The translations under genes were made by a program, and so were the position numbers. A DNA stretch of 63,326 nucleotides, filler included, from Globobulimina sp. (taxonomy: Eukaryota), in NCBI GenBank assembly GCA_003354225.1. It is 46 parts of 46 records of this genome, joined end to end, with 100 filler letters (N's around TTAATTAATTAA, not from the genome) between each part and the next. Parts side by side here need not be neighbours in the genome. Positions count along the whole stretch, not along the records: positions 42,757 to 44,034 come from PIVH01019552.1; positions 44,135 to 45,412 come from PIVH01019553.1; positions 45,513 to 46,790 come from PIVH01019554.1; positions 46,891 to 48,168 come from PIVH01019555.1; positions 48,269 to 49,546 come from PIVH01019556.1; positions 49,647 to 50,924 come from PIVH01019557.1; positions 51,025 to 52,302 come from PIVH01019558.1; positions 52,403 to 53,680 come from PIVH01019559.1; 38 more parts are not named here. One strand, 5' to 3'. Positions 20,594 through 59,192 of this stretch are shown one piece after another. Below the pieces are notes generated by a model. That model searched no databases and had not been told where the DNA came from. It saw only the letters and a list, made by a program, of their open reading frames with translations. The stretch's first letter is position 1; each line of letters opens with the position of its first letter.

Positions 20594-20694
20594 NNNNNNN
20601 NNNNNNNNNNNNNNNNNNNNNNNNNNNNNNNNNNNNNTTAATTAATTAANNNNNNNNNNNNNNNNNNNNNNNNNNNNNNNNNNNNNNNNNNNNT

Positions 20695-22543: not shown

Positions 22544-22568
22544 AATCGATGCCGAAGGTTCTCCACCA
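22544..22568 (-). other. Primer-binding site, tRNA-Ala-like
   Basis: TGGTGGAGAACCTTCGGCATCGAT begins 2 nt after the LTR; it resembles the complement of the eukaryotic tRNA-Ala 3' end (TGGTGGAGAATGCGGGCATCGAT). Confidence 0.7.
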
Positions 22569-22570
22569 CT

Positions 22571-22747
22571 TGAAGGGCCAGAGAGACGCGTGTGTGTAGA
22601 AAAGCAACCTTTACTAGGCGCTACAAAGGACAACAATGTAAAATACTAACAAAGGGCGGCTTATATACTAGGCAGGAAATGCCATACCTAGAATGCGCAT
22701 AACTACATATTTATCATAGATCACATATCACAGGGGCGGCTCCTTCA
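22571..22747 (-). repeat. 177-bp LTR
   Basis: 6-bp terminal inverted repeats TGAAGG/CCTTCA; internal TATATAA and AGTAAA on the minus strand; flanked by PPT and PBS. Confidence 0.85.
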
Positions 22748-23124
22748 CTCCCCCCTTTTGAGTGGCGTTTCTTGGCTGTTCTGAGTCGACCTTCTGTCCT
22801 GAATGTTTGATCTTTGGTCGACGTCTGGCTAACATTTGAATTCGTGATCGTCTCGCCATGCTCTGATGATGTGATTCGTCTGATTTGTATCTGACCTTCC
22901 AATCTCGACGTTTCCATTGTTGGTGTCGTCGCCATACCTTCCATTGGGGTGTCTGCCAACCGTTCTCCCCTTCTTGACCATTCTTCTCATGTATCCATCC
23001 TTTAGTGACTGGTTCCTTTGATCGTTGGGGATTTCCACCCATCCACCTCCTTCTGACTTGGTCCATATTTGTTCGATGCCTTTTCCTCTTCACTCGTCTC
23101 ATTCCATGGACCTTCATCTGTCGT

Positions 23125-23318
23125 TGTGCCACTCCAGGCTTAACATTTGAACGATGTGCCACTCCGGGCTTGCTACGACTTGCCATACATGAACGATTTG
23201 CCACTCCGGGCTTGCTACACAAACGATATGCCACTCTGGGCTTTGCATCTGAACAATGTGCCACTCCGGGCTTGCTACGACTTGCCACACATGAACGATT
23301 TGCCACTTTGGGCTTTGT
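23125..23318. repeat. Coding minisatellite with 30- and 42-nt units
   Basis: Six TGCCACTY(C/T)RGGCTT cores; all unit lengths are multiples of 3 and encode KPGVAxR on the minus strand. Confidence 0.9.
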
Positions 23319-23451
23319 ATGGACTTGCTCGACCCATAAGGGTTTCTTCTTNNNNNNNNNNNNNNNNNNNNNNNNNNNNNNNNNNNNNNNNNNNNTTAAT
23401 TAATTAANNNNNNNNNNNNNNNNNNNNNNNNNNNNNNNNNNNNNNNNNNNN

Positions 23452-42656: not shown

Positions 42657-42825
42657 NNNNNNNNNNNNNNNNNNNNNNNNNNNNNNNNNNNNNNNNNNNN
42701 TTAATTAATTAANNNNNNNNNNNNNNNNNNNNNNNNNNNNNNNNNNNNNNNNNNNNTAAAGTAAATGTGAAAAATTCGCCGGTTTCATTATTGGTATAAA
42801 TTTTAAATGGTTCCGTAGTATAACA

Positions 42826-43911
42826 CTATCTCATCGCTTCTATTTGTTTTTCATTCTTTAGTTGAACAATTTCATTTCTATTAAATTTTAAAGTTGTATG
42901 TTTACAACAAAAATTAATCATTCTTTTATTTTCTTGGTTGAACTTTTCTAATAAAAATCCATAATTTCCTTGTGTCCAAAAATATTGCGATAGTTTGGAA
43001 TTCAATTTTTGAATTTCTTCATTATTAATAAAAATATGAAACGTATCTTCATCAAATCTTTGCATTTTCCGTGCATCATAATTTTCAGGATTTAAATAAT
43101 TTGATATCATATTATTAAGCATACACTGCATATAATTCAAATTACAATTTTCTGCATATTTTTTATTTTGTAAATAATTATTAATAAATTGTACATCATT
43201 TGTCAGTAATTCCGCGTTGCAGTCATTATAAAATAATGCTCCTGATATAATTTTTTCGAATAACCGGAGCGCACAAACTTCGACAAAATAAGATCTGTCG
43301 ATAATAATATCAACAATATTTAATTTCGCTGATAACAAAAATCTCTCTTTTTCATTGGGATAATTTGAGAGGGGAATCATATCAAAATATCTGGGCATAG
43401 CGTCACCTGCTTTTAATTTAACAACAATCCCATCAATGGAAGCAAAATTCCGTGCGACAATATTTGAAGTTGATGTGGATAATGGAGCATAATAAAAATT
43501 TAAAAATGATGAAAATAACAACTTACAGCTCATACCCGTATAAATTACATCATTTTCATGCAATAAAGTACCAAAAATCCTGGTCGCATCCCATAAACAT
43601 GTCATCCAATTAGCAATATATCCATGTTTTTTCTTAATATCCCGGTCACTTTCATTTGCATATACTTTTCGACATTGCTCTTTAAATATTTTCTGAGCTT
43701 CCGTTTCATTGCAATATACTAATAATGATATTATATGATCAATACTCATAGTTTCACCTTCTTTGATGCCCAGTTTTTCTGCATTGCCACCTATTGTGGC
43801 TGTAATTCTTTTGCTAAATAACTCTGTCTTTAATAAAGTGCTAGCTTTGATATATAAATCTTCATACTCTTGCTTTGTAAATTTATAATATGGATTACCG
43901 TAGAATGGGTT
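42826..43911 (-). CDS. ADP-ribosyltransferase-fold (R-S-E clade-like) domain protein; 5' end missing
   Basis: HIISLLVYCN, IYTGM, APLSTSTS..VARNFA..GIVVKL, YFDM..LSNYPNEKERFL; the frame is open upstream of the listed ATG to ~43911. Confidence 0.65.
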   Translation of the reverse strand, partial: NPFYGNPYYKFTKQEYEDLYIKASTLLKTELFSKRITATIGGNAEKLGIKEGETMSIDHIISLLVYCNETEAQKIFKEQCRKVYANESDRDIKKKHGYIANWMTCLWDATRIFGTLLHENDVIYTGMSCKLLFSSFLNFYYAPLSTSTSNIVARNFASIDGIVVKLKAGDAMPRYFDMIPLSNYPNEKERFLLSAKLNIVDIIIDRSYFVEVCALRLFEKIISGALFYNDCNAELLTNDVQFINNYLQNKKYAENCNLNYMQCMLNNMISNYLNPENYDARKMQRFDEDTFHIFINNEEIQKLNSKLSQYFWTQGNYGFLLEKFNQENKRMINFCCKHTTLKFNRNEIVQLKNEKQIEAMR

Positions 43912-44795
43912 TCAATTGTACATGTAATTTTCGATAAAATGTTTTGTTCGCTCATCCTCATTTCGTGAAAACCAAATTGGGTATCATGAGCCAATATTGG
44001 TATTTTACGAATGAGAACATATGCAAAAATTAAANNNNNNNNNNNNNNNNNNNNNNNNNNNNNNNNNNNNNNNNNNNNTTAATTAATTAANNNNNNNNNN
44101 NNNNNNNNNNNNNNNNNNNNNNNNNNNNNNNNNNGCAAAGTATGAATGAGATTGATAATCACTTAAATTTTCAGGATGATATTAATGGATTAACTGCATC
44201 GCACTCACACTCACAGTCACAGTCGCGACCCACTTCACAATCACAGTCTCGGTCCACTTCGCATATTGACACAGTTAAACATATAACATATTATATCATT
44301 ATCGTTATTATCAGTATCGTGGTATACGTAGCGTTGTTATATGGTGAAGTGGGTCGCGATATCTATGATGAGTCCTCATCTCAATCTCAATCTCATTCTC
44401 AGTCTGAATATGAGGTCGAGGATGATGAGAATGGAAATCTAATGTTTGCTATTAGCAAAATGACACATTATGAGCCTGCTGTAAGTGATAATATTCCCTC
44501 TTCAAATGATGGTGATGGAAATCGTGAAGGCAATTCAAATCTTTTTCGTTTTTAATGTTTTTTATGTACGTTGTGTTAATTGTTTGCATTATTTTTACTT
44601 ATTTAATTTAAACAAACTTCATCAATTTTGCTTTGAAATTATTGTTTGTTTGGTTCTCTGTGAATTTTAATTCATTTATTATCAGTTTAATAAGATACTT
44701 AATCCATTCCACTGCTATATTTTGGTGTGGAATTTTGAATGTTTTTTGTTTCACTGTTCGGTCAGCTTTATCTTCCAAGGCAACATTAATTAACA

Positions 44796-45180
44796 ATGAG
44801 TGAAATTCTTGGCAACATAATCAGAAATATTCTGATGATGATGACAATTATATTTTCCTATGTATTTGCAACGGTCATTATTTATTATTACCGCAGATTA
44901 CGAAGAGAATTGCATTTAATGATGCTACAAAAACGGCATCCAGAAATATTACAGTTACAAATATACGCAGCTGTATTAAACTTATTATTGGCAGTTCCAT
45001 TTTTTGCGGGTTGATTTTTGTTCGGATCAAATATCAAAAGACAATCAATTAATAATTCGTTATATAAACCATATGCTGTGGCCAATTGGTGTATTATATT
45101 GGGCATTTATTGTAGTTTGGAGGGCATGGCACATTTATTTTGATTTAAAACAGTGGATGGAAATTTTATTTGGACCAAGA
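44796..45180 (+). pseudogene. Multi-TM receptor-like fragment with a frameshift at the T-run near 45000
   Basis: Successive TM helices with LQKRHP and WRAWHIYFD, split across two frames. Confidence 0.45.
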
Positions 45181-45512
45181 AATTTATTTTCATCACGTAT
45201 TTATTATATATATTCATTCTCGTCATATTATTCGCTGTGGTCATTGACACCGAATGGTTTTTATTCTGACATTTACTAAGCACTTTATTGTGTTGAATTT
45301 CGTCTAAAAGTATCTACGACGAATCAAAAATCATATTTAGGACAATCTAAAATCGACTCGTCCCGATTTACTTTTTTCAAGAATCGATATTTTTTGAAAT
45401 CAAGTAAAAAGCNNNNNNNNNNNNNNNNNNNNNNNNNNNNNNNNNNNNNNNNNNNNTTAATTAATTAANNNNNNNNNNNNNNNNNNNNNNNNNNNNNNNN
45501 NNNNNNNNNNNN

Positions 45513-46790
45513 ACGATGACGTATCCAGCATTGATGGCGACGAAGATCACGATAACCCCGCCACCAACAACCGTAACCGCAACAGCAACGGCAACAACAC
45601 CAGCAACGCTAACAGTCTTTTACCCGAACTACAGCCGCAATTTGCAGTGAGTAATGGCCGCGGCGGCTACAGTCCAGTGACATTGCTACCGCCTGTGTTG
45701 CGCAGCTGTAATGCCATAAACTTAGAAATACGTCGCTTGCAGAAGAATTACAACCGCGATGTGATGGGCATTAAGTATGAGGCAGATGAAAAGAAACAAG
45801 ATGATGGCACTCAATCCATGAATGTTGATCCCATGGACATGAGTATGGAGAATAATGTTGAGGTTGAGATGGAGGTTCAAACCATTGTTGCCGATCGCAA
45901 TGGGAATATATTATCCAATGTGTTGTCCAATAATCTTGCGCCTATATCGCCATCACAGCCACAGCCACCGTCTGTGAATAATACGAATTCGAACCAAACT
46001 ACGCAAGAAGAGCAGAAAACAGCCACCGCAACACAGCCACAGTCACAGTCACAAGCAGCAGCACCACCGGCACCGCCCAGAAGACGCGAATATTTATCCA
46101 ATTTATTGGATTCATGGGACAGTTTTAATGAGGTTGTGTTTGGTCTGCAAATGGATGAGAATATAGATAATGAGATGGATGAAGATAATGAGATGGAGGC
46201 CTATGGCGATGAGGAGATGAAAGGGAATAATAACGAGGCATTGGATGACATGGAGTATAAAGGGGTGATGGGATTCATTGACAGTGTGTTTGATGAGTTG
46301 GTGGATTATCAAAATAGCATTGAATCTGGATTGAATAATGAGATTATTGAGCAAGAGGCAAAGGAGGAGAAGGAACAAAAGGAGCAAAAGGATGACGATG
46401 ATGATAATGATATGGAGATGCAAGGCAATGAGGAGCAGGATGTGGATAAGAAAGGTAAATGTATGCATGGTTTGAAAGGATATAGGAAAGACAGGAAAGA
46501 TGTGTTAAAGAAAAAGGTTGAATCTGCCGGTAATATGTTGGTAGAGATTGGTACCGTCTTAGCGTCATTGGGCCATATGATTAATAAAATGGATTTGCAC
46601 AGAAAGACGACACGGAATAGGCTGCGTATTACGGGTTTGAGCAATATATCGCATGTGGTACGGACCGCTGTGCCCGTCGAGATATCCACCATTGTGTCGA
46701 GGGGGATTAATATTGGACAACAATTCCAACAAATGCGGCAAATGGCCAATGCCCAACAACAACCACCGCTAATGCCTCCAGTTTCTATTC
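45513..46790 (+). CDS. Acidic/Q-rich protein, internal fragment (weakly BAG6-like)
   Basis: Long ORF; AGNMLVEIGTVLASLGHMI loosely recalls a BAG6-family helix. Confidence 0.55.
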
Positions 46791-46891
46791 NNNNNNNNNN
46801 NNNNNNNNNNNNNNNNNNNNNNNNNNNNNNNNNNTTAATTAATTAANNNNNNNNNNNNNNNNNNNNNNNNNNNNNNNNNNNNNNNNNNNNT

Positions 46892-47662
46892 ATAAAAACA
46901 AAAACTCTGAAACGGATGGCGACAATGCCTACGCCATGTTTTGCCATGGAATCAATCCAGTTTCAAGGTAATATTTATCTCATTGGTGGGTATGATGGTA
47001 CCCGGTATATTGAGACGATTCTGGAGTTTAACCCTAATTCACACACCTTTAAAAAAATTGCTGAATTGCCAGCTCCACGAGCTTTTGGTGCAGCTGCGCG
47101 TATAGAAAAGAACCTGTATTATATCGGTGGATGGGATGGACGAGCATATGTAACTGATATTCTAAAAATAGACTTGGATCAGTGGCGTGTGACGACTGTC
47201 GGACACTTACCGGCCCCACGGGAATATCATGAAGTTGTGGCGCTAAACGACCACCTTTATGTTATTGGTGGGCAAGACAGGGATGGCAATAACTATTCGG
47301 ATGTACTTGAGATCGACCCGAGTACAGGAGAAGTCATACGAACAGCAGCCCTTCCCTCTGCTAGGGCTCACGTGAATGCCACGGTACTAAATGACAAAAT
47401 TTATGCTTTTGGGGGCTGGAATTATAAAGCATTAACCGATGTTATGGTGGTTGATCCTTCTGCAGATGCACTCGTTGTGGATGTTGTTGCCCAGCTACCA
47501 AAAGGTCAACATAAAAAGGCAGTCGTTGGATTGAACAAGCAAATCTATACAATTGGAGGCATTGGAGACGTTTCCGGTCACCAACTGGGAATTTTTCATA
47601 TGAAACCTGAGACATGGGAAATGGAGGCTATCCGTTTGAAAAGCTTTGTCTGGTGGGAATAA
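46892..47662 (+). CDS. Kelch-repeat protein, probably bacterial; 5'-partial
   Basis: Five YxIGG/FGG Kelch blades with LPxPR; intronless, with higher GC than host contigs. Confidence 0.9.
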   Translation: MKTKTLKRMATMPTPCFAMESIQFQGNIYLIGGYDGTRYIETILEFNPNSHTFKKIAELPAPRAFGAAARIEKNLYYIGGWDGRAYVTDILKIDLDQWRVTTVGHLPAPREYHEVVALNDHLYVIGGQDRDGNNYSDVLEIDPSTGEVIRTAALPSARAHVNATVLNDKIYAFGGWNYKALTDVMVVDPSADALVVDVVAQLPKGQHKKAVVGLNKQIYTIGGIGDVSGHQLGIFHMKPETWEMEAIRLKSFVWWE

Positions 47663-48268
47663 GATCATATGGATAGATCTGGTTTCAAACACACATGACG
47701 AGATCAGAAAACATAAAAACAGGATAAAAAAGGAATTCCGGGGATTCCGAGACAGCATACCTATTTCAACAACCAACATGCACCGGATTTCACAGGTGAT
47801 GTTGGAGAATATGGGGTCATCTTGAATAGTGAATAAGGAGAACTCCCGGGCTAGCTAGCTTAATTAAAACAAGCAAAATGCTGTGATCAAACCGTAGATT
47901 TCAATAACCGGGTGTGACCGGTTATTTTTGAGTTAACCAAGACATCGGGTACGGGTTTGATTCGTGTAGAGTCTGACAAAATGCCAGGAAACCACCTGGC
48001 AGCCTCAAAGATTGAATATTTGATATTTTACAAGCATATGCTATAGATATAATCATGATTCCGTTTAGCCCAAAATTCACTATAACTAACCACATGACAT
48101 CGGCCATCACACAAATTGAACGGGCCAGGGGTTTTCTGGAAGCTGCTCACCTCTCCGATGACTGGGTGNNNNNNNNNNNNNNNNNNNNNNNNNNNNNNNN
48201 NNNNNNNNNNNNTTAATTAATTAANNNNNNNNNNNNNNNNNNNNNNNNNNNNNNNNNNNNNNNNNNNN

Positions 48269-48572
48269 GAATGAATATATTGATCATGGAGGATATAATA
48301 TTTTTGATCATGGTTTAGCTCGGCTGTTCTTTCGAATATTGGACAATATTCATACTGAAAAAACAATTGACTTTTTAGGCTTAAACTTCTAAACACTTCT
48401 TTTGTGATTGGCAAGGTTTTTGGGTTAGCTAGAGTGGTTTTCAACTTTGAATACTAGGATTCGAAACCTAGGTGGACTTTTTTCAGTATGAATATTGTCC
48501 AATATTCGAAAGAACAGCCGAGCTAAACCATGATCAAAAATATTATATCCTCCATGATCAATATATTCATTC
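48269..48572. repeat. Perfect 95-bp inverted duplication (48269-48363 / 48478-48572)
   Basis: Exact reverse complement that starts at the contig edge, with a 114-nt spacer. Confidence 0.95.
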
Positions 48573-49018
48573 ATTTCATGTTTTAATAGACTGCTTACTT
48601 TGTCCCTTTCTGACCATATTGTTTGTAAAGTCACAGACTAGATATTTTAGTGAGAATTCTCTGTACATCTGATGTTTTTTATTCTTATCAAACCTAAGTC
48701 AAACATGGAAACGCTATGTATATATTGCAGAATTATAAAGCAGTGCTGATTAGATTGATACAGTTCGTGTAAATGTTTGTGTAATCTTATCATATTGTTG
48801 TTGTCGTAGTGCGGTCCATTCTCTACGTAAATGATAGCATAAATTATTAGAATATGAATGTTTCAACGCATTGACTTTTGTATTATTATAACGATTTTAA
48901 CCATATTTTTATATTCAAAGTACAGTTATGATTGGTATACAAATGAATGTATGAATCAGTATGATTGTCAATATTCGCAATATTACAGAAAATACATTGT
49001 TTTGGGATTGTTTTTCTA

Positions 49019-49235
49019 ATGGAATTCGATCATCAAAAAATGTTTGATAATAATTATAAATGTGCTCTTAATAAGACAACGATAATATTAAATCATGAAC
49101 TTGCTCGAGGAGCACACGGTGCGGTGTATTTAATTGATGGATGGTGAATTTGAATCTTCAAATGGTTATCCATCAAAAGTCATAGATGAAAATTTGTGTG
49201 AAACACGGAATTCGGAATTAAATGCATTGTGAATG
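49019..49235 (+). pseudogene. Protein kinase N-lobe remnant
   Basis: ELARGAHGAVYL, then stops and a shifted IKVI...SELNAL. Confidence 0.55.
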
Positions 49236-49300
49236 AATGAGAAGGAATTTTAAATTAATACAATGAATAACGCAAATAATCAAAAAAACGGCGTTGTTCG

Positions 49301-49546
49301 TTAATAACCACGATATCCATATGCTCTTTGATAGGCTTCATCGTAAGCATTCGGATCAAACAATACGATGTCTGCTTCATCCTCATCTTCGTCATCATCA
49401 TCATCATCGACATCGACATCAATATCGGACAATTCCTCATCATCCAATTCAACATCATTCAAATTATCCAAATCATTGCTATCACCAACATCATTATCAA
49501 TATTATTATCTTCTAGTTCTACTTCTATTTGTTGCTGTGACTGTGT
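49301..49546 (-). CDS. Acidic C-terminus of an unknown protein
   Basis: 82 codons open from the contig edge, D/E-rich, ending AYGYRGY*. Confidence 0.55.
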   Translation of the reverse strand, partial: TQSQQQIEVELEDNNIDNDVGDSNDLDNLNDVELDDEELSDIDVDVDDDDDDEDEDEADIVLFDPNAYDEAYQRAYGYRGY

Positions 49547-49646
49547 NNNNNNNNNNNNNNNNNNNNNNNNNNNNNNNNNNNNNNNNNNNNTTAATTAATT
49601 AANNNNNNNNNNNNNNNNNNNNNNNNNNNNNNNNNNNNNNNNNNNN

Positions 49647-49970
49647 GGATTCAGCTGAAATATGTTTTGTGGGTATTGGTTATATGGACGAACGCAAGAT
49701 ACATGTCAATTTCGGTCCAGCGATTTCGAAACCGGAGATTCGCGGGGTCCCGAACTTAAATAGGAATAGTTATAGAACCTTCAATATTGGTCCGATTGGG
49801 GTGAAATTTGTTTTGTGGGTATTACATAGATGGACGAACACAAGATACATGTCAATTTTGGTTAGGTGATTCCGGAAGCGGAGATTCGCGGAGTCCGGAA
49901 GTTAAATGGGAATCGTTATAGAACCTTCAATAATAGTCAGATTAAGCTGAAAGTTGTTTTGTAGATACTA
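49647..49970. repeat. Satellite with ~146-147-bp unit (~2.2 copies visible)
   Basis: (C/G)TGAAA..TGTTTTGT at 49655, 49801 and 49948; AGATACATGTCAATTT, GGAGATTCGCGG and TTATAGAACCTTCAATA each recur. Confidence 0.85.
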
Positions 49971-50651
49971 TCGGCATTTTACATGGCTCTGCCACCTTTC
50001 CTTTTCAACACTTCAATTTTTTATTTCATTTTGTCAATTAAGTTTCTTGTTTACTAATATATATATATATATACGTAATAATGTTCCGGATTTTATGCGT
50101 TCAAATTAAATTGTAAATCATCTCCAAGGAGCAAGTACAAAAGAGAAATAATGACAGTCTTTAATAATACCGAATGATGAATGAATGAATAATCAATTTC
50201 TGCACTTTTATTTAAGGAACTTGTTGATACAATCGTGATCATTGGTGACAGGACAATAATCGTAATGCGATAGATGCAATAATTATTTTATATAATAACA
50301 ATGCATAATAGAATACAGTATAAATTTTGCGTGATCCTTTCTTTGTCAAATATGTAGGTTTCAGATATAGTAAAAAATATTCACTTGAAAGATCTTGTTG
50401 ATTGAATCTATTTTGTTCGGACGCCATGGACATAGTTTAGCATAAACATTCAATATTCATGAAATTTTTATGCCATTTTCTTGTTTTTTTGTACAATTTC
50501 TGAAAAAATGAATTTTGTACATGTTGTATATTTAATTGGCTGCAAGCAGCCATAGAAAAAAAAGGATATCATTAGGGCAAAATGCGCTTCGCGCACAAAA
50601 AGGGCTTTAATGTTCTCCCGTGCAAAAATAGAGATACTAAAAGAATACATA

Positions 50652-50890
50652 ATGGAAAGCGGTTTGCATGGAGCGTAGAAAAGTAGAGATACAAGAAGAA
50701 TTAAAAGCTGTTTGCATGGAGCGTAGAAAAGCAGAGATACAAGAATAATGGAAAGCTGGTTTGCGTGGAGCGTAGAAAAGCAGAGATACTAGAGAATCGA
50801 AAGCTGTTTGCATGGAGCGTAGAAAAGCAGAGATACTAGAGAATCGAAAGCTGTTTGCATGGAGCGTAGAAAAGCAGAGATACTAGAGAG
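50652..50890. repeat. Minisatellite, five ~47-49-bp units
   Basis: AAAGCTGTTTGCATGGAGCGTAGAAAAGCAGAGATAC repeated head to tail. Confidence 0.95.
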
Positions 50891-51160
50891 CTCGTGCTCG
50901 CGGATTAAATCGTCCTCGCAGATTNNNNNNNNNNNNNNNNNNNNNNNNNNNNNNNNNNNNNNNNNNNNTTAATTAATTAANNNNNNNNNNNNNNNNNNNN
51001 NNNNNNNNNNNNNNNNNNNNNNNNTGACAGAGTTTTTAAAAAATCAGTACTTATCGGAGAGGCCTATTGCTTGACTAAAAAAAAACATCTTTGAAAATCT
51101 CACTTGTAATTTGCAAACACAAAAAAAGGATAAATAATTAAAAAAAACAATGCATTTCAG

Positions 51161-52302
51161 TCAGGGAGAATATCTGGCAACCCAAGCAAGCAAATATTTT
51201 AAATCGATCACCATATATTTCAGAGCTTGCGTCCAATTCTCCTCCGTAGACTGCGCAAACCGAATGGACAGAAATTTCTTATTTTTAATGTCGCCAATCT
51301 GATGTCCATTGATCTGATACCTTAAATAGAATTTGTTGTCTTGGCTGATCATCCACACTGCGAATTGTTTGATGCATTGCAAGAAGCATTCCAATGCTTT
51401 GTCGCATTGTTTGTAGCCAAACAAACCCGTACTGCCATACATATGATGTATTTTCTGTGTCTTTTTCTCGCAAATATAGCTGAAGGAGCCCATGGGATAC
51501 AACTCATAGATTTTAAATTTGAAGTTCTTAGACTTGCAGCGCTGCGCCAACACGTCCAACAACAACACGCATTGTCCCAAACCAGTGTTGATTTCCTCCC
51601 ATTCCACGCAGACCGAAGGCAAGCGGCCCAATCGGAGGCCGTTGATAGTGCCAAAATGTCCGTCATGGTAAATATGGAAAGCATCGTCAAAGACATTGGT
51701 CGATTTCATCAAATCCAAATGAGTGCTGATTCTGCGCATTTTCTGCCGCACCGCGGCGTGCTGCATAGACAGATTCTCGATGGAATACCAAAAGTCATTG
51801 GCGTCGCAAAAGAACATCTCCTCGAACTCATTCATGCGCTGAGCCTCCATCTCAAGTTGCTCGAATTCCAACTTTAAGCGCTGTTTTTCCACGCAAATGT
51901 TTGCTAACTTTCTTTCTAATGCTTGCGCCTCGGAACTGTACTGTTTTAGGCGCGCTTCTTCCTCATTTTTATGTTGCTTTTCGTGTTCATTTTGCTCTTC
52001 GTTTTCATTCTGCCATTGCGAGATGAATGCATTTAATGTTTTTTTCTCTAAATTCAATTCTTCAATCTCGCTGTCTAAGCCTTTCATGATTTTGTCGCTG
52101 CAGTCGGAACATAAAGGATGTTGTACGCCGGCATGGCCAGCGGTTATTTGCAATATACACTCCAAGACATTTAGGCACTGCGCAAAGTCATTGGCATTCA
52201 ATTTATTGTTGTGGTTAGGCTCAGGTTCGGAGCTCAACCCATCGCTCTTTCGCTCCTTTGCATCGTCCAAATTATGTTTCTTGTTGTTATTGTTATTGTT
52301 GT
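51161..52302 (-). CDS. ATG6: Beclin-1/ATG6; 5'-partial
   Basis: HPLCSDC, coiled coil, TNVFDDAFHIYHDGHFGTINGLRLGRLP...WEEIN.GLGQCVLLL, WTQALKYM. Confidence 0.96.
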
Positions 52303-52402
52303 NNNNNNNNNNNNNNNNNNNNNNNNNNNNNNNNNNNNNNNNNNNNTTAATTAATTAANNNNNNNNNNNNNNNNNNNNNNNNNNNNNNNNNNNNNNNNNN
52401 NN

Positions 52403-53680
52403 GATCGGTCTGCATTAATAATGATTTCATATGATGATAATGCGCGTTTATATTATGATCAGTGGTTTCGGCGCCCAATCTTGCATTGAAGTCACCAATC
52501 ACCAGTATGTTGTCAGATTTGTGTTTGAAGCGCTGTATGTCAGATGTTAATGTATTATAGAATTTGGTGCTTCTTTGGGGGTTCTCTGTGCTGTATGGAC
52601 GGACATAGTTTATTGAGAGGTAAGTGGGCTTTGTTTGGTCCTCAAAGTCAATGGAGAGCCACACAGTGTTGAGGCCCCTCGGTTTGTGGATGTAATGGAT
52701 GGTATTTTTTAAGTGTCTTTTTTTGTATATTATCACGCCTCCAATTCTGGCTTTGTTATTTGTTAATGTTGGCGGTTTGTGTGCGATTAATGTGTATCCA
52801 GGGACCACCCAATTAGGCCGTGTCATGGATCTGGTGTCTATTAAGCAGATTATGTCAAGCTTATGTTGGACAATTAGCTGTTGCATGTACGGGTGTTTGT
52901 GTTGGGTTTTGTATTTGGTGGAACCATTTATGTTTAAGAAGCCTATGGTTAATTGTTTCAATGTTATTTTGGTGGCAGTCATGGGTTCGATGTGTGGGGC
53001 ATACATTTGGAGGAAGGGGAACTTTTGTATGATGTTCGGTAGATCCTCTTCTTTGTATTGGTCATTATTTAGATGCGTTTGGAGGATTTTATGGATTAGA
53101 TACTTCTTATAACGCTTCAGGTTGTCGTGCGTGGTGCGGTGTTTGGTGACCGCATATTTGAACATCTGAGTTAGAGCCAGAATGGCGTTATTCTTCATGT
53201 TGTTGATCTGGTTGGCTCTGTTCAGTCGGTATATGTTGGTGCAATTGAATCGCTGTATGGACTCCCAATGGGATAGGATCTGACGATGGTTTTTTGTATC
53301 TGGGACATTCCATCGGATGTGATACTTATTATGTTTTATGGATTGTTGGACTGTGGGCTCGCCATCAATGTATTCGAAGCGGTTTATGAAATCATGGATG
53401 TCTTTGATCACTGCCGGGTCTCTGTTGTAAGCATGCAATTGTACACACGGTATCTGTTCAACTGTGGGGTCTGTGTAGGGGATGCCTTTGAAGCGGAGTT
53501 GGACATTTGGTGGGAAGTTATGTAGGATGTGGTATTTTATTGGATTATAGCGATGGACTGGCATACGGAGTGTTATCCAACGAAGCGATTTATGCATTAT
53601 AATTTTGACATATTTGAAATAGTTTCTTATGGAATGTTGATGTCTCTCAATGTATTCATAAAGGATATGTGTGTGTTCTG
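52403..53680 (-). mobile_element. Non-LTR retrotransposon ORF with an APE (EEP) endonuclease, open across the whole contig
   Basis: IGFLNING, DIICLIDT, GGVIIY, YVRP, LVIGDFNARLG; strong A/C skew on the coding strand. Confidence 0.85.
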
Positions 53681-53781
53681 NNNNNNNNNNNNNNNNNNNN
53701 NNNNNNNNNNNNNNNNNNNNNNNNTTAATTAATTAANNNNNNNNNNNNNNNNNNNNNNNNNNNNNNNNNNNNNNNNNNNNA

Positions 53782-54603
53782 TTTTCGATAAGTTTTTTAG
53801 TATTAGCCATCTTATTAACGATATATCATATAGTAACCACATATGTTTCCACAAAACATTTATGTGACCCAAAATTCTTACACAAACATCCATCAATCAT
53901 GTTGTCATATTTATTATTATTTGTAGTATGTATAAGTGGTATTAGTTTAACAATGGATAGTGTGATAATCACTCATTTATGCTCAGCGGCACAATATTAT
54001 GGCCCTTCATTATATTCTATATTCAAAACCATTGTCTATTTAATATTAGGAGTGCGTATTTACATCACTTTCAAAGATTCCATGTACGCCTATAACGTCC
54101 CGCGATTAATAGCATGGTCAGTCCTGTTAACAGTATGGACATTATTTAATGTGATTGCTGGTAATCTAACGGTTGAATCACAGATGAAAAAGGAAGAGAG
54201 AAGTACCAAATGTTTAGTAATACCTTCATTTCTCTACATTGTGTCGCAAGCATTGTTAGATTTGACCTCTGGCGTTGTGAATTGTATTTTATTTGTACGG
54301 CCCATCTGTAAATTATATGCCTTGGCCGGTACCGACAATATAAACATTAAAAAAATCGCATATAAACAATGCATTCTATCATTAATTACAATCTTATCAA
54401 GTATAATATCAATGGCTGGCATTGGTGCATTCAGTAACATCGTTCCTGTGTTCGTAGCATCGGATATGTTAATATCGACATTGTGCGTGGTGTTGATGTA
54501 TCGGTGGAATGCGCGCCTCACTGAAACTATTTGTGGCTGTTGTATGCCAAGGGAAGATATTATACAATTGGAGGATGTGGTACTTGATAATGTTAATTCA
54601 TAA
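53782..54603 (+). CDS. Serpentine (7TM, GPCR-like) membrane protein; 5'-partial
   Basis: About 7 hydrophobic helices, extracellular Cys pair, RIYITF, LFVRPI, C-terminal CGCC. Confidence 0.7.
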   Translation, partial: FSISFLVLAILLTIYHIVTTYVSTKHLCDPKFLHKHPSIMLSYLLLFVVCISGISLTMDSVIITHLCSAAQYYGPSLYSIFKTIVYLILGVRIYITFKDSMYAYNVPRLIAWSVLLTVWTLFNVIAGNLTVESQMKKEERSTKCLVIPSFLYIVSQALLDLTSGVVNCILFVRPICKLYALAGTDNINIKKIAYKQCILSLITILSSIISMAGIGAFSNIVPVFVASDMLISTLCVVLMYRWNARLTETICGCCMPREDIIQLEDVVLDNVNS

Positions 54604-54787
54604 TATTGGTCTTTCTAAAACATTGTCAGGGATCACAGCATATAACTAAATGTAATATAATCACAGCAAAGCTTAAATATTGAATGTTAATCCCAACCCT
54701 TTTTTTGTTTGGTTTGTTTTTAATACCACTCTATTTTTAAGATCTTGAGTGTATATTTACCAAAAAAAACGCCAGTAATTAGTATAT

Positions 54788-54939
54788 TATTCATATTCAA
54801 CTTTTTCGTTTCGAGGATGAGTAACGTTTCCGAAAACACAGTTTTTGGCCGAGGGGGTGGTGGGTGGGGAGCCTCCAAGGCCAAAAACTGTGTTTTCGGA
54901 ACACGTTACTCAGCCAAGATAAAAAGTTGAATATGAATA
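54788..54939. mobile_element. Hairpin MITE-like element with G-rich loop
   Basis: TATTCATATTCAACTTTT/AAAAGTTGAATATGAATA and CCGAAAACACAGTTTTTGGCC/GGCCAAAAACTGTGTTTTCGG arms. Confidence 0.8.
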
Positions 54940-55158
54940 CGATGCTTTATTCCCAAAAATGACCATACAATTTTTTATATCATCATAATAATAAAAATAA
55001 TATATGCTTTCTGCTTTTTTGATTGAGTTTATGGGAAAAAATTGAAATACAAACATCCNNNNNNNNNNNNNNNNNNNNNNNNNNNNNNNNNNNNNNNNNN
55101 NNTTAATTAATTAANNNNNNNNNNNNNNNNNNNNNNNNNNNNNNNNNNNNNNNNNNNN

Positions 55159-56256
55159 ATTGTCGTCATTGTCATTTATTAAATCGACCCGATGCAATGC
55201 TAAATATATTAAATTATTTGCATTGATTTTTGTATTAAATAATTGTGGATCGAATGTAAAGTCCAATTGGATGCTATCCACACAGCTAAAATATGGCAAT
55301 AATTTTAGAAATAAACTCTCATTCTCATAGCTCCGGATATGAATAAAATGTATATTTTTTATTATTTTCTCCTGCGATATGTAGCAAACCATTTCTTTTA
55401 ATGCATTTTCATCACAATCCCATAACATTGGATCATCTAAAAACAATTTAGTGCAATAAATATCTGACATACAATCCAAAACATTGCCAAATATCCAAAT
55501 CTCGCGATATTTATGGTTCAATATAAACCGATTATGATTTGGATTTGGATTTGGATTATTTTTAGATTTTGTATATCGACACAATATCTGTTGGGGGTAT
55601 ACATTGATGGTATAATATCGAAAAAAATATTCATTATTTATACATATTTGACGAAATAATTTACAAATTACAAAAAATTTGTTAAATTCATATTTATTCA
55701 TATATAGAAAATGCATTATTTTGATTAATATGTTTTCATTTAATTGCGTTATTATTTTCTTATCATTGGTCGCTTTAATATTCATTGCGTTCATTAATGA
55801 GGGCTTCATTGGCGACGAATGAGCGCGCGGCTTAAAATACGTTTGTTGCGCCGTCGAATATGTTTTTTTCATTGAAATTGCCGTCGAACCCGTTCTTTTT
55901 TTATTTTTATAATTAGCATTTTTGTTTGTGCGCATCCGAATATTTATATGTCCATTGATTACTTGCTTTATTAAGTCACACCATTCTGTTTTTTCTCTAT
56001 TTGAAGATACAGCAAATTTATATGTTCGCGCTGGTGTTTCTAAATAAAATCCATTATCAAATGTTTTGCCAGCATCACCCGCCAATTTTATTGTTTCTTT
56101 ACCACTTAATTCAATCACACCTTTCAAATCATTTTTTTTATCATTACGAAAATATTCTAAAACGCGAGTATCGTACAACACCAACCATCTTTTATTCCAT
56201 GTTGGACATCGTTTTGGTCCACATTTCTCGACCCAGCCTTCTTTTATACTTGACAT
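55159..56256 (-). CDS. PH domain + F-box + probable LRR protein; 3'-partial
   Basis: IKEGWVEK....WNKRWLVL...YF...KGVIEL...TPARTYKF...EKTEW (PH); ITQLNENILIKIMHFL....ICKLFRQI (F-box). Confidence 0.8.
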
Positions 56257-56688
56257 GTTTTTCAACTCTCACTCTCACTCTGAATAATATATAATATAAT
56301 CTCAGATCAGATCAGATCAGATCATATTAAATCATGTCGTCATGGACTTGTCCACAGTGTACATTTTCGAATGAATCAGGATTGGCTTTAAACTGTACAG
56401 TCTGTGGATTTATAAAACCAAGCTCAAACGGGTGGANNNNNNNNNNNNNNNNNNNNNNNNNNNNNNNNNNNNNNNNNNNNTTAATTAATTAANNNNNNNN
56501 NNNNNNNNNNNNNNNNNNNNNNNNNNNNNNNNNNNNTCTTTTATTTTTTTTTCTGTGTTGTTTTGTTATGTAATTTGGATATTTTATAGTTTTGTTATGC
56601 TTTCCAAATCTGATAAAAGAGCTAGGTTTCTTATGCATTATGTGAAGTAGTTCCAACTTGCACCCCAGCGAAAACCTACTTTTTTTGA

Positions 56689-57483
56689 ATGAGAATCGGT
56701 GTTCCCAAACAAGCGACAAATTTATTGCGAAAAAAGCAAAATGAATGGAGACAATCGTTGCCACCAATATTAAAATTGGAAATATTGAAAGGAAAAGAAA
56801 AAACTAGAATTAAAAAACAGTTTTTACGTTCAGGTGTGGATTGGATATGGGATAAACCAAAAAATATATCATGGTCATATTATTTACCAGTACCAGGGAG
56901 AACATCTGATCGTAAGCCACGTATTAAAGCACAAAGAATTGCAGAAGCAATGCAATCAATGCCAGATTTAATTGCAGAATATAGGGAACAACGGAGGCAG
57001 TACAATTTACAGATTAAACTTGAAAAAAAACAAGTCGATGAAAAAAATAAATTGATAAATGCAGCGTCGACGCGATTGACTGATTTAAGAGAATTAGTGA
57101 AAGAATTTGATATTTTGGATGATTCATTCTTTGATGGTGATGATAATTATTACGAGTTATTATTGAATAAAGAGGAAAATAATGACAATAATGGAAATAA
57201 ATGGAAAAATATTGAAAATAAAAGGAAAAAAACATCGGAAAAATTCAGAAAAATGCTTACTAAGAAACCATTGTTGTCCTCTAAACTTGATACAATCAAA
57301 GAGAAACTTGACAAATCGCGAGAATATGAAAAACTAGACCCAGAAGACGGTGATTATGATGATGGGAGAACATGGACTTCACGGCGCAGTGAGAAGGAAT
57401 TAGCGTACATACAACAATTAGCAAATGAACCAAATATTGAAAAAGAACAAGAAAAACACTCCAAAAAGACAGTTAAAACTTAA
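56689..57483 (+). CDS. Mitochondrial ribosomal protein mL59-like, with charged C-terminal extension
   Basis: PGRTSDRK....AQRIAEAMQSMPDLIAEYRE resembles mL59 (KG.K.ER....R...I..AM..MP..I.EW); the 5' end is uncertain. Confidence 0.55.
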   Translation: MRIGVPKQATNLLRKKQNEWRQSLPPILKLEILKGKEKTRIKKQFLRSGVDWIWDKPKNISWSYYLPVPGRTSDRKPRIKAQRIAEAMQSMPDLIAEYREQRRQYNLQIKLEKKQVDEKNKLINAASTRLTDLRELVKEFDILDDSFFDGDDNYYELLLNKEENNDNNGNKWKNIENKRKKTSEKFRKMLTKKPLLSSKLDTIKEKLDKSREYEKLDPEDGDYDDGRTWTSRRSEKELAYIQQLANEPNIEKEQEKHSKKTVKT

Positions 57484-57523
57484 AACTATCCAATTATACA
57501 AACTACAAACTACAACCTACAAC

Positions 57524-57814
57524 CTACACACCGACCACTAAATTTGAAAGGATTGCCGCAATTAATTGTGGCCCAAAAAACACCGACATAGCAAGACATA
57601 TAAGGCAACAAAAACAACCACATATCTTATAATAAAGTTTATCCCCTAACAATTGTTTTAACATTGAAAACGGATTCAGTGACCATCGGAATCTACCTTC
57701 CGGATCAGGTAAATACGGATTCATATTTGGATCACCACGACCCAATCCAGCTGGGAATTTATTAGCTTCTTCCTTTGTCATTAACTCCATAGAAACTTGC
57801 AATTTTCCTTGCAC
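57524..57814 (-). CDS. Ferlin C-terminus with tail anchor
   Basis: GKLQVSMELMTKEEA...PAGLGRGDPNMNPYLPDPEGR..W.LNPF followed by a TM helix. Confidence 0.9.
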   Translation of the reverse strand: MQGKLQVSMELMTKEEANKFPAGLGRGDPNMNPYLPDPEGRFRWSLNPFSMLKQLLGDKLYYKICGCFCCLICLAMSVFFGPQLIAAILSNLVVGV

Positions 57815-57914
57815 NNNNNNNNNNNNNNNNNNNNNNNNNNNNNNNNNNNNNNNNNNNNTTAATTAATTAANNNNNNNNNNNNNNNNNNNNNNNNNNNNNN
57901 NNNNNNNNNNNNNN

Positions 57915-59192
57915 GTTTTTTTATTGGGATTTTACAAGACACTACACGGGAACAGATGCGCTGCTTGCATCAAATGCACTGCGATCGACTGACTGGGATG
58001 CGATGAATGCATTTAACGGAGAGTATTCAATCTATGAACCAAATCCGGATGGCACATTATCCAGATCAGCCATCAACGTATGGATACCATGAAAATGAGC
58101 CTATTCGAGAAAGCAATTTAAGTGCAATTATGATTTATTGTGGTGAGGATGTTAAGTGTTTCTATTTCTTTTTTACATCACATAATACATTAAAATTGTC
58201 CGTCTATAGAAGTTTCAAGAAAAGTTTAGTAGAACATATCGAGCAATGGAAAAGGATGAAAAATTCCAATCTATAAAAGAACGGCATGCCAATTATTATC
58301 ATTTTGCAAAGCTTTTGCGAGAAACAGTTGAAATTTATGGGGTCTCTTATATGGATGGAGCGATACATACATTCTATCATGGCATTGTTGGCGAGATGGT
58401 ATTCCATGGGATGCAATGTACGATATTTGGTCCATTATCCACAACTTCTGAGTTATCGGTGGCGGAAATATATTTCAGTGCTTCTGGTTTGATATTAGAG
58501 TTAGTGCCAGATCCTCATCTCAAATATTTTGAGTGTCGTTCGTATTCATTATATCCGCATGAATTTGAATATTTATTTGTTGGTGGAATGGCTTTGATGA
58601 ATATAATGAATATAACAAATACAATCACCGGGGAAGAATTCATTGATTATGTGCAGATATTACGAATTATTGATACAATGACAAATGGTGTTTATTATGA
58701 TAGCGATCCAACCAATATTCATAAAATGAGAAATAAAGAAACCGATGAATGGATTGTAGATATTGACAATTTGGGATTTACTGATATTCCAAACAAAATT
58801 AAAAAGCCAACATTGCAATTTTTGCAATATCGAATGGATAAATCTACTAAATATAATGACAAATATTTTATTAAGTTATTAAACAAAATGTGTAGCCATA
58901 AAAAGTCGATTGCCATAAATTGGCAAAGTATTAATGTTGATATTTTAGAGCAAGTTGATGATTGTGGCGGATATATTGGATTTAAGTTTGTTCGCTCTAT
59001 GATTTGTATTATGAAGAATGGGAAATATGACAGGATTGATATAAAAACAATGTATCAAATATTTCCAGCAACAATCAATATCATTATATTTAATCTGCCA
59101 TTTATTAGCGAGGATTATTTAACTGATATTTTAAACTTTATTCAAAATGAACAGGAATCGAAGATTACATGGTTTGAATTGGCACTTTGCGA
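57915..59192 (+). CDS. Second ADP-ribosyltransferase-fold domain protein; intron 58151-58209; partial
   Basis: LSAIMIYCGED|KFQEKFSRTYR, FYHGI, FGPLSTTSELSVA..YF...GLILEL, YFEC..YSLYPHEFEYLFVGG. Confidence 0.68.

What the first reader, a model, noticed from the sequence alone, without database searches (positions are those of the whole stretch)
42826..59192. Recurring family of toxin-like ADP-ribosyltransferase-fold genes (42826-43911 and 57915-59192)
Seen: two unlinked contigs encode divergent paralogues with the same motif order: [HL]xxxhhhYC, F..xR, Y[HT]G, PLST[ST]S..VA..F, G.hh.L, YF, S.YP.ExE.h. One has a spliceosomal intron, so it is eukaryotic. Established: aromatic-R-G / STS / ExE is the signature of R-S-E mono-ADP-ribosyltransferases (C3, VIP2, ecto-ARTs), and ExE is typical of Arg-modifying enzymes. 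Here the first Arg is replaced by His or Thr. Inference: two hits in 46 random contigs imply a very large, fast-evolving expansion, possibly an immune, prey-killing or signalling effector system. I do not know of any functional characterisation of it.
Basis: partly seen in the sequence, partly recalled or inferred. Interest (0 to 1): 0.8.

Follow-up and report, generated by a model that had tools for sequence, protein, structure and literature searches.

The report
Foraminiferal ADP-ribosyltransferase family lacking hallmark arginine
Two short contigs of a foraminifer encode distant members of a very large, apparently undescribed family of intracellular proteins whose core domain has the fold and catalytic motifs of arginine-type ADP-ribosyltransferases but lacks their hallmark NAD-binding arginine.

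Summary
Contig A (42757-44034, gene on the minus strand) and contig B (57915-59192, plus strand) encode paralogues that are 23% identical (E 2e-11).

An AlphaFold2 model of A's first 240 residues, built with 79 relatives, is confident (pLDDT 91.9). Its best structural matches are all R-S-E-clade ADP-ribosyltransferases. The top match is rat ART2.2 (Z 11.5-12.5), followed by a bacterial toxin/immunity ART, XopAI, HopU1 and ExoS.

In 145 aligned domains, the STS serine is kept in 142 and the ExE glutamates in 140 and 145. The beta-1 arginine position is Thr, His or Cys; Arg occurs in 2 of 145.

The family has 1,496 representatives at 50% identity. All 22 named proteins among 30 looked up come from the foraminifera Bolivina and Nonionella. 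Relatives are long proteins that also carry PH, FYVE, kinase, CAP-Gly, EF-hand and UBA domains, and few have a signal-like N-terminus. This points to cytoplasmic enzymes rather than secreted toxins.

The 59-nt GT..AG intron in B appears removed in contigs of three public runs.

Enzyme activity is untested. My literature searches found no description of this family.

The parts
43222..43911 (-). Gene A, ART domain (residues 1-230 of the open frame)
   Evidence: HMM of 98 relatives gives 273.7 bits. The AF2 model has pLDDT 91.9. VIA-align gives Z 11.5-12.5 to ART2.2.
43534..43542 (-). Gene A, beta-1 motif Y124-T125-G126 (Thr where R-S-E enzymes have Arg)
   Evidence: Read from the sequence. It lies in strand E122-127 of the model. 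The family column reads T54/H53/C22/S8/V3/R2 of 145.
43471..43479 (-). Gene A, S145-T146-S147 (STS motif)
   Evidence: Lies in strand E144-147, which is followed by helix 150-156. S145 is kept in 142 of 145.
43345..43353 (-). Gene A, E187-K188-E189 (ExE motif)
   Evidence: E189 opens strand E189-192. E189 is kept in 145 of 145 and E187 in 140 of 145.
42826..43221 (-). Gene A, C-terminal region (residues 231-361) and TAG stop; no known family
   Evidence: Shared by a subset of relatives, for example P0001 aligned over 5-353 and P0145 at 47% identity. The Atlas gives no lead, best score 0.79.
58054..58150 (+). Gene B, upstream exon (ends ..IMIYCGED)
   Evidence: Matches HMM positions 169-211, E 6e-4. 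Contigs of the public runs fit from 58054 onward and carry other sequence before it.
58151..58209 (+). Gene B, 59-nt phase-0 GT..AG intron
   Evidence: A frame change occurs. The joint 58150->58210 'skips 59, GT..AG' is seen in X6, X8 and X5.
58210..59192 (+). Gene B, main exon: rest of the ART domain plus a C-terminal region; open at the contig end
   Evidence: HMM score 137.6 bits. Closest relatives are P0155 at 40% and P0157 at 54% identity.
58375..58383 (+). Gene B, Y-H-G (His where R-S-E enzymes have Arg)
   Evidence: Read from the sequence.
58438..58446 (+). Gene B, S-T-T (STS motif)
   Evidence: Read from the sequence. Aligned to A's STS motif.
58561..58569 (+). Gene B, E-F-E (ExE motif)
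   Evidence: Read from the sequence. Aligned to A's E-K-E.

Best explanation
Both genes encode members of a very large, foraminifer-rich family of mostly cytoplasmic multidomain proteins. The conserved ~230-residue core is a divergent ADP-ribosyltransferase domain of the R-S-E (cholera-toxin-like, ARTC) clade.

The domain keeps the STS motif on beta-2 and the ExE motif at the start of beta-5, but has Thr, His or Cys in place of the beta-1 arginine.

I infer the following. The domain is catalytically active and uses NAD+ to mono-ADP-ribosylate intracellular targets, most likely arginine side chains given the ExE motif. It may also have some NAD+ glycohydrolase activity. The variable flanking domains (PH, FYVE, CAP-Gly, kinase, EF-hand, UBA, SAM, MYND) would direct each paralogue to membranes, the cytoskeleton, Ca2+ signals or ubiquitin pathways. 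Conserved basic residues in the N-terminal helices (R81, R/K95, R/K104) may take over the NAD-phosphate contact of the missing arginine.

Shown here: homology, fold, motif conservation, family size, taxon, domain fusions of relatives, and the intron. Inferred: catalysis, arginine specificity, the compensating arginines, and the signalling role.
For: Fold:
- The AF2 model with 80 sequences has pLDDT 91.9 and pTM 0.87.
- Foldseek's top hits are ART2.2 (E 1.9e-4), ExoS, Vis, Plx2a, XopAI, C3, HopU1 and VIP2.
- An exhaustive VIA-align run over 48,161 chains gives ART2.2 Z 11.5 (173 aligned, rmsd 3.1), 6drh_B 11.3, XopAI 10.8 and HopU1 10.5. Twelve chains reach Z of 8 or more.
- NAD(H)-bound ART2.2 reaches Z 12.5 and 12.2. 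Viral ARTs top the viral structure library.

Sequence links:
- 9 of 80 family members match Pfam PF01129 ART (best E 1.5e-6) and 1 of 80 matches PF03496.
- The Atlas best hit scores 0.96 to a PF03496 cluster with 175 shared features.

Motifs sit on the expected elements. Y-T-G is in strand 122-127. STS is in strand 144-147, followed by a helix. E189 opens strand 189-192.

Selection on catalytic residues, among domains with a median 29.7% identity: S145 142/145, E187 140/145, E189 145/145, plus Y124 133 and G126 135.

Intracellular context of relatives:
- PH in 6 of 49, and one each of Pkinase, CAP-Gly, EF-hand, UBA, SAM, TPR and MYND.
- FYVE, PUB and VWA, one each of 80.
- PH+UBA, MYND and EF-hand in individual proteins.
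- Only 8 of 161 have a hydrophobic N-terminus by a crude test.

Family size and taxon:
- 1,496 representatives at E<=1e-3, 495 at <=1e-10 and 22 at <=1e-30.
- Of 30 looked up, 19 are Bolivina argentea, 3 Nonionella stella and 8 unnamed ENA contigs.
- The window's beclin is 73% identical to Ammonia sp. and 58% to Reticulomyxa filosa.

A spliced form of B is present in contigs of 3 of 4 runs laid.
Against: - A and B themselves match no Pfam, NCBIfam or PDB sequence at useful E-values. The family profile finds only a weak PDB sequence hit, 2kxi_A at E 0.09.
- The defining beta-1 arginine is absent. In other ARTs, loss of triad residues goes with reported inactivity. The abstract listing for PMC2576468 describes human ART4 as apparently inactive.
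- I could not obtain model coordinates, so there is no residue-level superposition and no NAD placement. That STS and ExE line one cleft follows only from their positions on the canonical strands.
- Foldseek TM-scores are modest (0.34-0.45).
- Gene A has no resolved 5' end. A TGA closes the frame five codons before the first conserved residue, no AG lies between them, and the first ATG is M55. A could therefore be a truncated or dead copy.
- The domain architectures come from transcriptome-predicted proteins of other species, not from this genome.
- The signal-peptide test is a hydrophobicity heuristic.
- The runs that show splicing are only guessed to be RNA.
Confidence: 0.72

Rival explanations
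1. NAD+-consuming conflict or immune effectors. The ART domain would act mainly as an NADase or self-directed toxin module in a diversified innate-immunity or cell-death repertoire. The variable N-terminal domains would act as sensors or adaptors.
For: - The expansion is very large and divergent: 1,496 representatives with median identity 29.7%.
- The best structural match, ART2.2, and several bacterial toxin/immunity ARTs are close in fold.
- Six relatives carry two ART domains.
- Lineage-specific bursts occur. A is sister to a clade of 14 proteins, of which the 10 that were looked up are Bolivina proteins; the joint clade of 15 has support 0.93 (names).
Against: - The fused domains seen (PH, FYVE, CAP-Gly, kinase, EF-hand, UBA) are general signalling and trafficking modules. 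No NACHT, TIR, death-fold or LRR-type domain appeared in the 137 scanned proteins (8 + 80 + 49, with overlap).
- A near-invariant ExE favours transfer to arginine over plain hydrolysis. This rests on established knowledge of R-S-E enzymes and was not tested here.
Confidence: 0.2
2. Catalytically dead pseudo-enzymes. The domain would serve as an NAD/ADP-ribose-binding or protein-interaction scaffold, because the NAD-binding arginine is lost.
For: - Arg occupies the beta-1 position in only 2 of 145.
- Vertebrate ART3 (K-L-V) and ART4 (G-S-E) are precedents for deviant triads (table passage of PMC7955679).
Against: - E189 is invariant (145/145), E187 is kept in 140/145 and S145 in 142/145, across paralogues that share only about 30% identity. 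Such conservation is not expected once catalysis is lost.
- The replacement is restricted to T, H, C and S rather than random, which suggests a functional alternative.
Confidence: 0.12
3. Secreted or injected prey-killing toxins, analogous to bacterial C3, VIP2 or ExoS.
For: Fold neighbours are mostly bacterial toxins and effectors. Foraminifera are predators.
Against: - Only 8 of 161 relatives have a hydrophobic N-terminus and 15 of 161 have a TM-like segment (crude test).
- The domain sits a median of 289.5 residues from the N-terminus, behind cytoplasmic modules.
- No translocation or receptor-binding domains were detected.
Confidence: 0.05
4. ADP-ribosylation of non-protein targets (nucleic acids or small molecules), as in pierisin/scabin, RNA-targeting Rhs ARTs or Arr.
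For: ART-fold enzymes with such targets appear lower in the match list: Scabin Z 6.3 and Arr Z 7.3.
Against: - The closest matches are protein-modifying enzymes (ART2.2, XopAI, HopU1, ExoS).
- ExE is typical of arginine-directed enzymes (established knowledge, not tested here).
Confidence: 0.08

Closest known systems
Vertebrate ecto-ARTs (ARTC; Pfam PF01129), represented by rat ART2.2 (PDB 1gxy, 1og3, 1og4)
   Same: - Best structural match: Z 11.5-12.5, 170-173 residues aligned, rmsd 3.1.
- A eukaryotic R-S-E-type fold that includes the N-terminal helical part.
- STS-type serine and a catalytic Glu on beta-5.
- 9 of 80 family members reach PF01129 at E<=0.01.
   Different: - Sequence identity is 13-14%.
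- The beta-1 Arg is replaced by T, H or C.
- The family is not made of ecto-enzymes. Most relatives lack a hydrophobic N-terminus and are long multidomain proteins.
- A and B themselves do not match PF01129.
Bacterial R-S-E effector and toxin ARTs: 6drh_B toxin/immunity pair (recalled as Tre1/Tri1 of Serratia), XopAI, HopU1, ExoS/ExoT
   Same: Z is 9.4-11.3 over 159-175 residues. They share the core topology. Several are arginine-directed (recalled).
   Different: Those proteins are secreted or injected single-purpose effectors that keep the canonical Arg. The foraminiferal proteins are endogenous, carry an intron, and are fused to eukaryotic signalling domains.
C3/VIP2/iota-type exoenzymes (Pfam PF03496)
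   Same: - Z is 7.5-8.4.
- The Atlas best cluster is PF03496, score 0.96.
- The stretch from STS to the F-containing loop to GIIL resembles the C3 STS/PN-loop region (recalled, by eye).
   Different: The structural match is weaker than to ART2.2. There is no beta-1 Arg. C3 has QxE, whereas this family has ExE.
Phage T4 ModA/ModB ADP-ribosylases
   Same: hhalign puts the family's STS region and E-x-E in register with ModA (E 0.006) and ModB (E 0.12).
   Different: The statistics are very weak (probabilities 6% and 0.5%). Only the C-terminal half aligns.
H-Y-E clade (diphtheria toxin, PARPs)
   Same: The Y-H-G of gene B, and of 53 of 145 relatives, resembles the aromatic-H-G beta-1 motif of this clade (recalled).
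   Different: The second motif is STS rather than Y. Structural scores are much lower: diphtheria toxin Z 6.2 and PARPs 5.1 or less.

Membership tests
ART superfamily, R-S-E (cholera-toxin-like/ARTC) clade | ART fold (split beta-sheet NAD-binding core) | tested here: met
   The model has pLDDT 91.9. All top matches are ARTs: ART2.2 at Z 11.5-12.5, and 12 representative chains at Z>=8. Foldseek's best E is 1.9e-4.
ART superfamily, R-S-E (cholera-toxin-like/ARTC) clade | Arg on beta-1 (aromatic-R-G) | tested here: not met
   A has Y-T-G and B has Y-H-G. The family column reads T54, H53, C22, S8, V3, R2, others 3, of 145.
ART superfamily, R-S-E (cholera-toxin-like/ARTC) clade | S-T-S motif on beta-2 | tested here: met
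   A has S145-T-S in strand 144-147. S is kept in 142/145, T in 128/145, and T or S in 143/145. B has S-T-T.
ART superfamily, R-S-E (cholera-toxin-like/ARTC) clade | Catalytic Glu at the start of beta-5, here as E-x-E | tested here: met
   E189 is kept in 145/145 and E187 in 140/145. E189 opens strand 189-192. B has E-F-E.
ART superfamily, R-S-E (cholera-toxin-like/ARTC) clade | The three motifs line one NAD+ pocket | tested here: inconclusive
   Only the secondary-structure placement and whole-domain superposition scores are available. I had no coordinates and no NAD placement.
ART superfamily, R-S-E (cholera-toxin-like/ARTC) clade | NAD+-dependent ADP-ribose transfer or NADase activity | not testable with these tools
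   This needs an enzyme assay.
Pfam PF01129 (ART, NAD:arginine ADP-ribosyltransferase; vertebrate ecto-ART type) | Match to the family HMM | tested here: not met
   A and B have no match at E<=10. 9 of 80 relatives match at E<=0.01, best 1.5e-6. Whether any reaches the gathering score was not shown.
Pfam PF01129 (ART, NAD:arginine ADP-ribosyltransferase; vertebrate ecto-ART type) | Extracellular or GPI-anchored enzyme with a signal peptide | tested here: not met
   8 of 161 relatives have a hydrophobic N-terminus (crude heuristic). Cytoplasmic domain fusions are seen. The N-termini of A and B are not on the contigs.
Pfam PF03496 (ADPrib_exo_Tox; C3/VIP2 type) | Match to the family HMM | tested here: not met
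   A and B have no match. 1 of 80 relatives matches at E 4.6e-4. The Atlas feature search points to a PF03496 cluster at 0.96, which is a lead only.
H-Y-E clade (PARP/diphtheria-toxin type) | H on beta-1, Y on beta-2, E on beta-5 | tested here: not met
   H is present in B and in 53 of 145 relatives, but beta-2 carries S-T-S rather than Y. Structural Z is 6.2 or less, against 11-12 for R-S-E enzymes.

The most novel reading that the evidence does not exclude
Foraminifera run a kinome-scale cytoplasmic arginine-ADP-ribosylation system. Hundreds of paralogues per species would carry an ARTC-type domain with a re-engineered NAD site ([T/H/C]-S-ExE, with the phosphate contact supplied from the N-terminal helices). 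Each would be targeted by PH, FYVE, CAP-Gly, EF-hand, kinase or UBA modules. Together they would act as a major writer system for membrane and microtubule dynamics of the reticulopodial network, or as a diversified NAD-based self-defence repertoire. No other eukaryote is known to use ARTC enzymes in this way.
Probability: 0.3. Interest if true: 0.8.

Novelty: new variant of a known kind. Interest (0 to 1): 0.62.

Why it matters
Intracellular ADP-ribosylation in eukaryotes is attributed almost entirely to PARP-type (H-Y-E) enzymes and sirtuins. ARTC-type enzymes are known as vertebrate ecto-enzymes and as bacterial or phage toxins.

A family of over a thousand divergent, cytoplasmic, multidomain ARTC-like proteins in foraminifera would be a second, independent way of building an ADP-ribosylation signalling or defence system.

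The systematic loss of the hallmark arginine, with strict retention of STS and ExE, is a natural experiment on how the NAD site of this fold can be rebuilt.

The family also offers a concrete handle on the little-known cell biology of an ecologically important protist group. The relevant tools would be an HMM, antibodies against Arg-ADP-ribose, and recombinant domains.

Tried and rejected
- Direct sequence searches found nothing useful for A or B: Pfam, NCBIfam and PDB sequences. The word-index protein search with A found nothing. With the family profile it found only 10 proteins, all EukProt.
- The family profile against PDB sequences gave only 2kxi_A at E 0.09, over the PlSTT..vA..F motif. 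I recall this entry as the Neisseria ART NarE, but the tool calls it 'uncharacterized protein'.
- Single-sequence AlphaFold2 of A failed (pLDDT 33.7).
- No genome is held for this window, so copies in the organism itself could not be counted.
I did not pursue it.
- I considered that the TGA closing A's frame upstream might be a sense codon. I rejected this. TGA ends 10 of the 28 frames of at least 150 codons that close within their contig, each followed by a short frame.
- I considered a frameshift or an upstream exon in another frame of contig A. The HMM of the extended family found nothing significant upstream in any frame.
- hhalign of the family profile against T4 ModB and ModA gave in-register but statistically weak alignments (E 0.12 and 0.006). 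These are not used as evidence of homology.
- The Atlas search with A's C-terminal 130 residues gave a best score of 0.79, which is no lead.
- No RNA holder is listed for contig B. The runs laid are only guessed to be RNA.
Only contig B could be laid, so gene A has no read evidence.
- X7 did not show the intron joint.
- The review that defines the ART clades (Aravind et al. 2015, PMC6126934) is not held. I saw only its summary in a passage of PMC7955679. Supplements were not consulted.

Full report
**What the window is**

The 63,326 bases are 46 contigs of 1278-1280 bp joined by N spacers. No whole genome is held for the window.

The finding concerns two contigs. I call them A (42757-44034, GC 28%) and B (57915-59192, GC 33%). 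The ten contigs between them are unrelated.

The organism is a foraminifer:
- A beclin gene on another contig (51164-52300, minus strand) is 73% identical to a protein of Ammonia sp. and 58% to a partial Reticulomyxa filosa protein.
- Every named relative of the family described below comes from foraminifera.

**Checking the observation**

Contig A has a stop-to-stop frame at 42826..43911 on the minus strand, 361 codons. Contig B has a frame from 58210 to the contig end, 327 codons. A short upstream piece lies in another frame and ends at 58150.

The two proteins are homologous:
- BLASTP gives 23% identity over 165 residues, E 2e-11.
- Against an HMM built from 98 relatives, A scores 273.7 bits, B's main exon 137.6 bits, and B's upstream piece 7.2 bits (E 6e-4).
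- No further copy is in the window.

A 59-nt phase-0 GT..AG intron at 58151-58209 joins B's two frames. It restores the family spacing between the YC motif and the F..xR motif exactly; I read this by eye against the consensus. Contigs of three of the four public runs laid on contig B, from three studies, carry exactly this joint ('skips 59, GT..AG'). One of them is a 1,144-nt contig. The runs are only guessed to be RNA.

**What the domain is**

Direct searches with A or B found no Pfam, NCBIfam or PDB sequence match. A word-index protein search also found nothing.

An exhaustive HMMER search with A against 1.84 billion cluster representatives found 1,496 proteins at E<=1e-3, 495 at <=1e-10 and 22 at <=1e-30.

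I aligned A's first 240 residues with B and with 78 of the 150 listed hits. These 78 were the hits of 760 residues or fewer that cover the domain. AlphaFold2 on this alignment gave a confident model, with pLDDT 91.9 and pTM 0.87. The single-sequence model had failed at pLDDT 33.7.

Fold comparisons:
- Foldseek against the PDB ranks ART2.2 first (E 1.9e-4, TM 0.39-0.45). ExoS, Vis, Plx2a, XopAI, C3, HopU1 and VIP2 follow.
- VIA-align against 48,161 representative chains, run independently of Foldseek, gives ART2.2 Z 11.5 (173 residues, rmsd 3.1). It gives an ART toxin/immunity pair (6drh_B) 11.3, XopAI 10.8, HopU1 10.5 and ExoS 9.4, with 12 chains at Z>=8.
- H-Y-E enzymes score much lower: diphtheria toxin 6.2 and PARPs 5.1 or less.
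- A second look at Foldseek's list puts the NAD(H)-bound ART2.2 mutants at Z 12.5 and 12.2.
- Viral ARTs top the viral structure library.

Sequence-level bridges exist but are weak:
- 9 of 80 family members match Pfam PF01129 at E<=0.01 (best 1.5e-6), and 1 of 80 matches PF03496.
- The protein-language-model Atlas gives 0.96 to a PF03496 cluster.

**The active site**

In my alignment of A with 144 domain hits, these residues are nearly invariant:

| Position | Residue | Kept in (of 145) |
|---|---|---|
| 189 | E | 145 |
| 187 | E | 140 |
| 145 | S | 142 |
| 143 | P | 140 |
| 124 | Y | 133 |
| 126 | G | 135 |
| 59 | H | 135 |
| 66 | Y | 138 |
| 81 | R | 132 |

In the model, Y124-T125-G126 lies in strand 122-127. 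S145-T-S lies in strand 144-147, which is followed by a helix. E189 opens strand 189-192. This is the canonical beta-1, beta-2 and beta-5 placement of the R-S-E triad, as I know it from established descriptions of the fold.

The position between Y124 and G126, where R-S-E enzymes have the arginine, reads T 54, H 53, C 22, S 8, V 3 and R 2 of 145. The loss of the arginine is therefore a property of the whole family, not of these two genes.

Strict retention of STS and ExE among paralogues with a median 29.7% identity argues for an active enzyme. I propose that conserved basic residues in the N-terminal helices (R81; R/K95 in 125/145; R/K104 in 135/145) replace the phosphate contact. This is inference. 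I had no coordinates and could not place NAD.

**Context of the domain**

The contigs are too short to show neighbouring genes, so context comes from relatives. These are mostly long proteins, up to 3,071 residues. The domain lies a median of 289.5 residues from the N-terminus, with 220.5 residues following it. Six relatives carry two copies of the domain.

Pfam scans of relatives found:
- PH in 6 of 49, and one each of protein kinase, CAP-Gly, EF-hand, UBA, SAM, TPR and MYND.
- FYVE, PUB, VWA and MYND, one each of 80.
- PH+UBA, MYND and EF-hand in individual top hits.

By a crude hydrophobicity test, 8 of 161 relatives have a signal-like N-terminus and 15 of 161 have a TM-like segment.

This pattern fits cytoplasmic enzymes aimed at membranes, the cytoskeleton, Ca2+ and ubiquitin pathways. 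It does not fit secreted toxins.

**Size and age of the family**

Of 30 hits looked up among the best 150, 19 are from Bolivina argentea, 3 from Nonionella stella and 8 from unnamed ENA contigs.

A and B belong to different deep branches. In a FastTree of 168 domains, their last common node holds 158 tips. A is sister to a clade of 14 proteins; the 10 of them that were looked up are Bolivina proteins, and the joint clade of 15 has support 0.93. B sits in a separate clade with support 0.99. B's closest relatives are 40-54% identical and share its C-terminal region.

The family therefore diversified before these foraminifera split, and it also expanded within lineages. Two copies in 59 kb of random contigs agrees with a very high copy number, but I could not count copies in this genome.

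**Literature**

- Full-text searches for Reticulomyxa or foraminifera together with ADP-ribosyltransferase or ADP-ribosyl returned 1, 2 and 9 papers. None is about this family.
- The one relevant paper, PMC4245714, treats PARPs only (passages read).
- A passage of PMC3482391 lists eukaryotic occurrences of Tox-ART-RSE as fungi, insects, molluscs and plants, not Rhizaria.
- A passage of PMC7955679 summarises the three-clade scheme. Its table shows deviant triads in human ART3 (K-L-V) and ART4 (G-S-E).
- The review that defines the clades is not held and may mention related protist families. Supplements were not consulted.

**Open points**

- Gene A's 5' end is unresolved. The family has about 140 more conserved N-terminal HMM positions that are absent from contig A. 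A's frame is closed by TGA five codons before the first conserved residue, no AG lies between them, and the first ATG is M55. TGA is an ordinary stop in this window. A may continue in an exon off the contig by an unusual junction, or it may be a truncated copy.
- Upstream of 58054, all four runs carry sequence different from contig B and give zero depth over 57915-58043. Either another intron ends there, although the contig has GC rather than AG at that point, or the contig is chimeric.

**Verdict**

These are divergent members of a huge foraminiferal family with an R-S-E-type ART fold and a [T/H/C]-S-ExE site.

I rank the family as a new variant of a known kind. Catalysis, substrate and biological role remain to be shown.

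Noticed in passing
window 57915-58053 (contig B, upstream of the first supported exon): All four public runs laid give zero depth here. Their contigs carry a different, mutually consistent sequence immediately before 58054 (loose ends of up to 183 nt). The window contig has GC, not AG, at 58052-58053. This could be an unusual splice junction, a structural variant or a chimeric contig.
   Followed up: partly
window 43897-44034 (contig A, upstream of the open frame): Gene A's frame is closed by TGA five codons before the first family-conserved residue. There is no AG acceptor between them and no ATG before residue 55. The roughly 140 N-terminal HMM positions conserved in relatives are not found in any frame of the contig. 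The copy may be 5'-truncated, or its exon structure may be unusual.
   Followed up: partly
window 52403-53680 (minus strand): An open frame spans the whole contig (425 codons). By eye its motifs look like an AP-endonuclease-type domain of a non-LTR retrotransposon (..GDFNARLG..). It was not searched.
   Followed up: no
window 20694-21972 (plus strand): An open frame spans the whole contig (426 codons). It is built of long internal repeats (..MFTDSV.TGT.DVADLIIRGD.. recurs) and looks fibre- or adhesin-like. Its origin is unknown.
   Followed up: no
window 51164-52300 (minus strand): A beclin/Atg6 gene (Pfam PF04111 and PF17675 on its relatives). It is 73% identical to Ammonia sp. and 58% to Reticulomyxa filosa. 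I used it only to place the organism among foraminifera.
   Followed up: yes
relatives P0041, P0076, P0079, P0084, P0089, P0141: Six family members carry two ART domains in one protein of 1,520-3,071 residues. This recalls the duplicated ART domains of binary toxins, but here within cytoplasmic-type proteins.
   Followed up: no
window 22073-23351 and other contigs with GC 41-48%: GC content of the contigs ranges from 26% to 48%. This may reflect compositional heterogeneity or mixed origin of the assembly.
   Followed up: no
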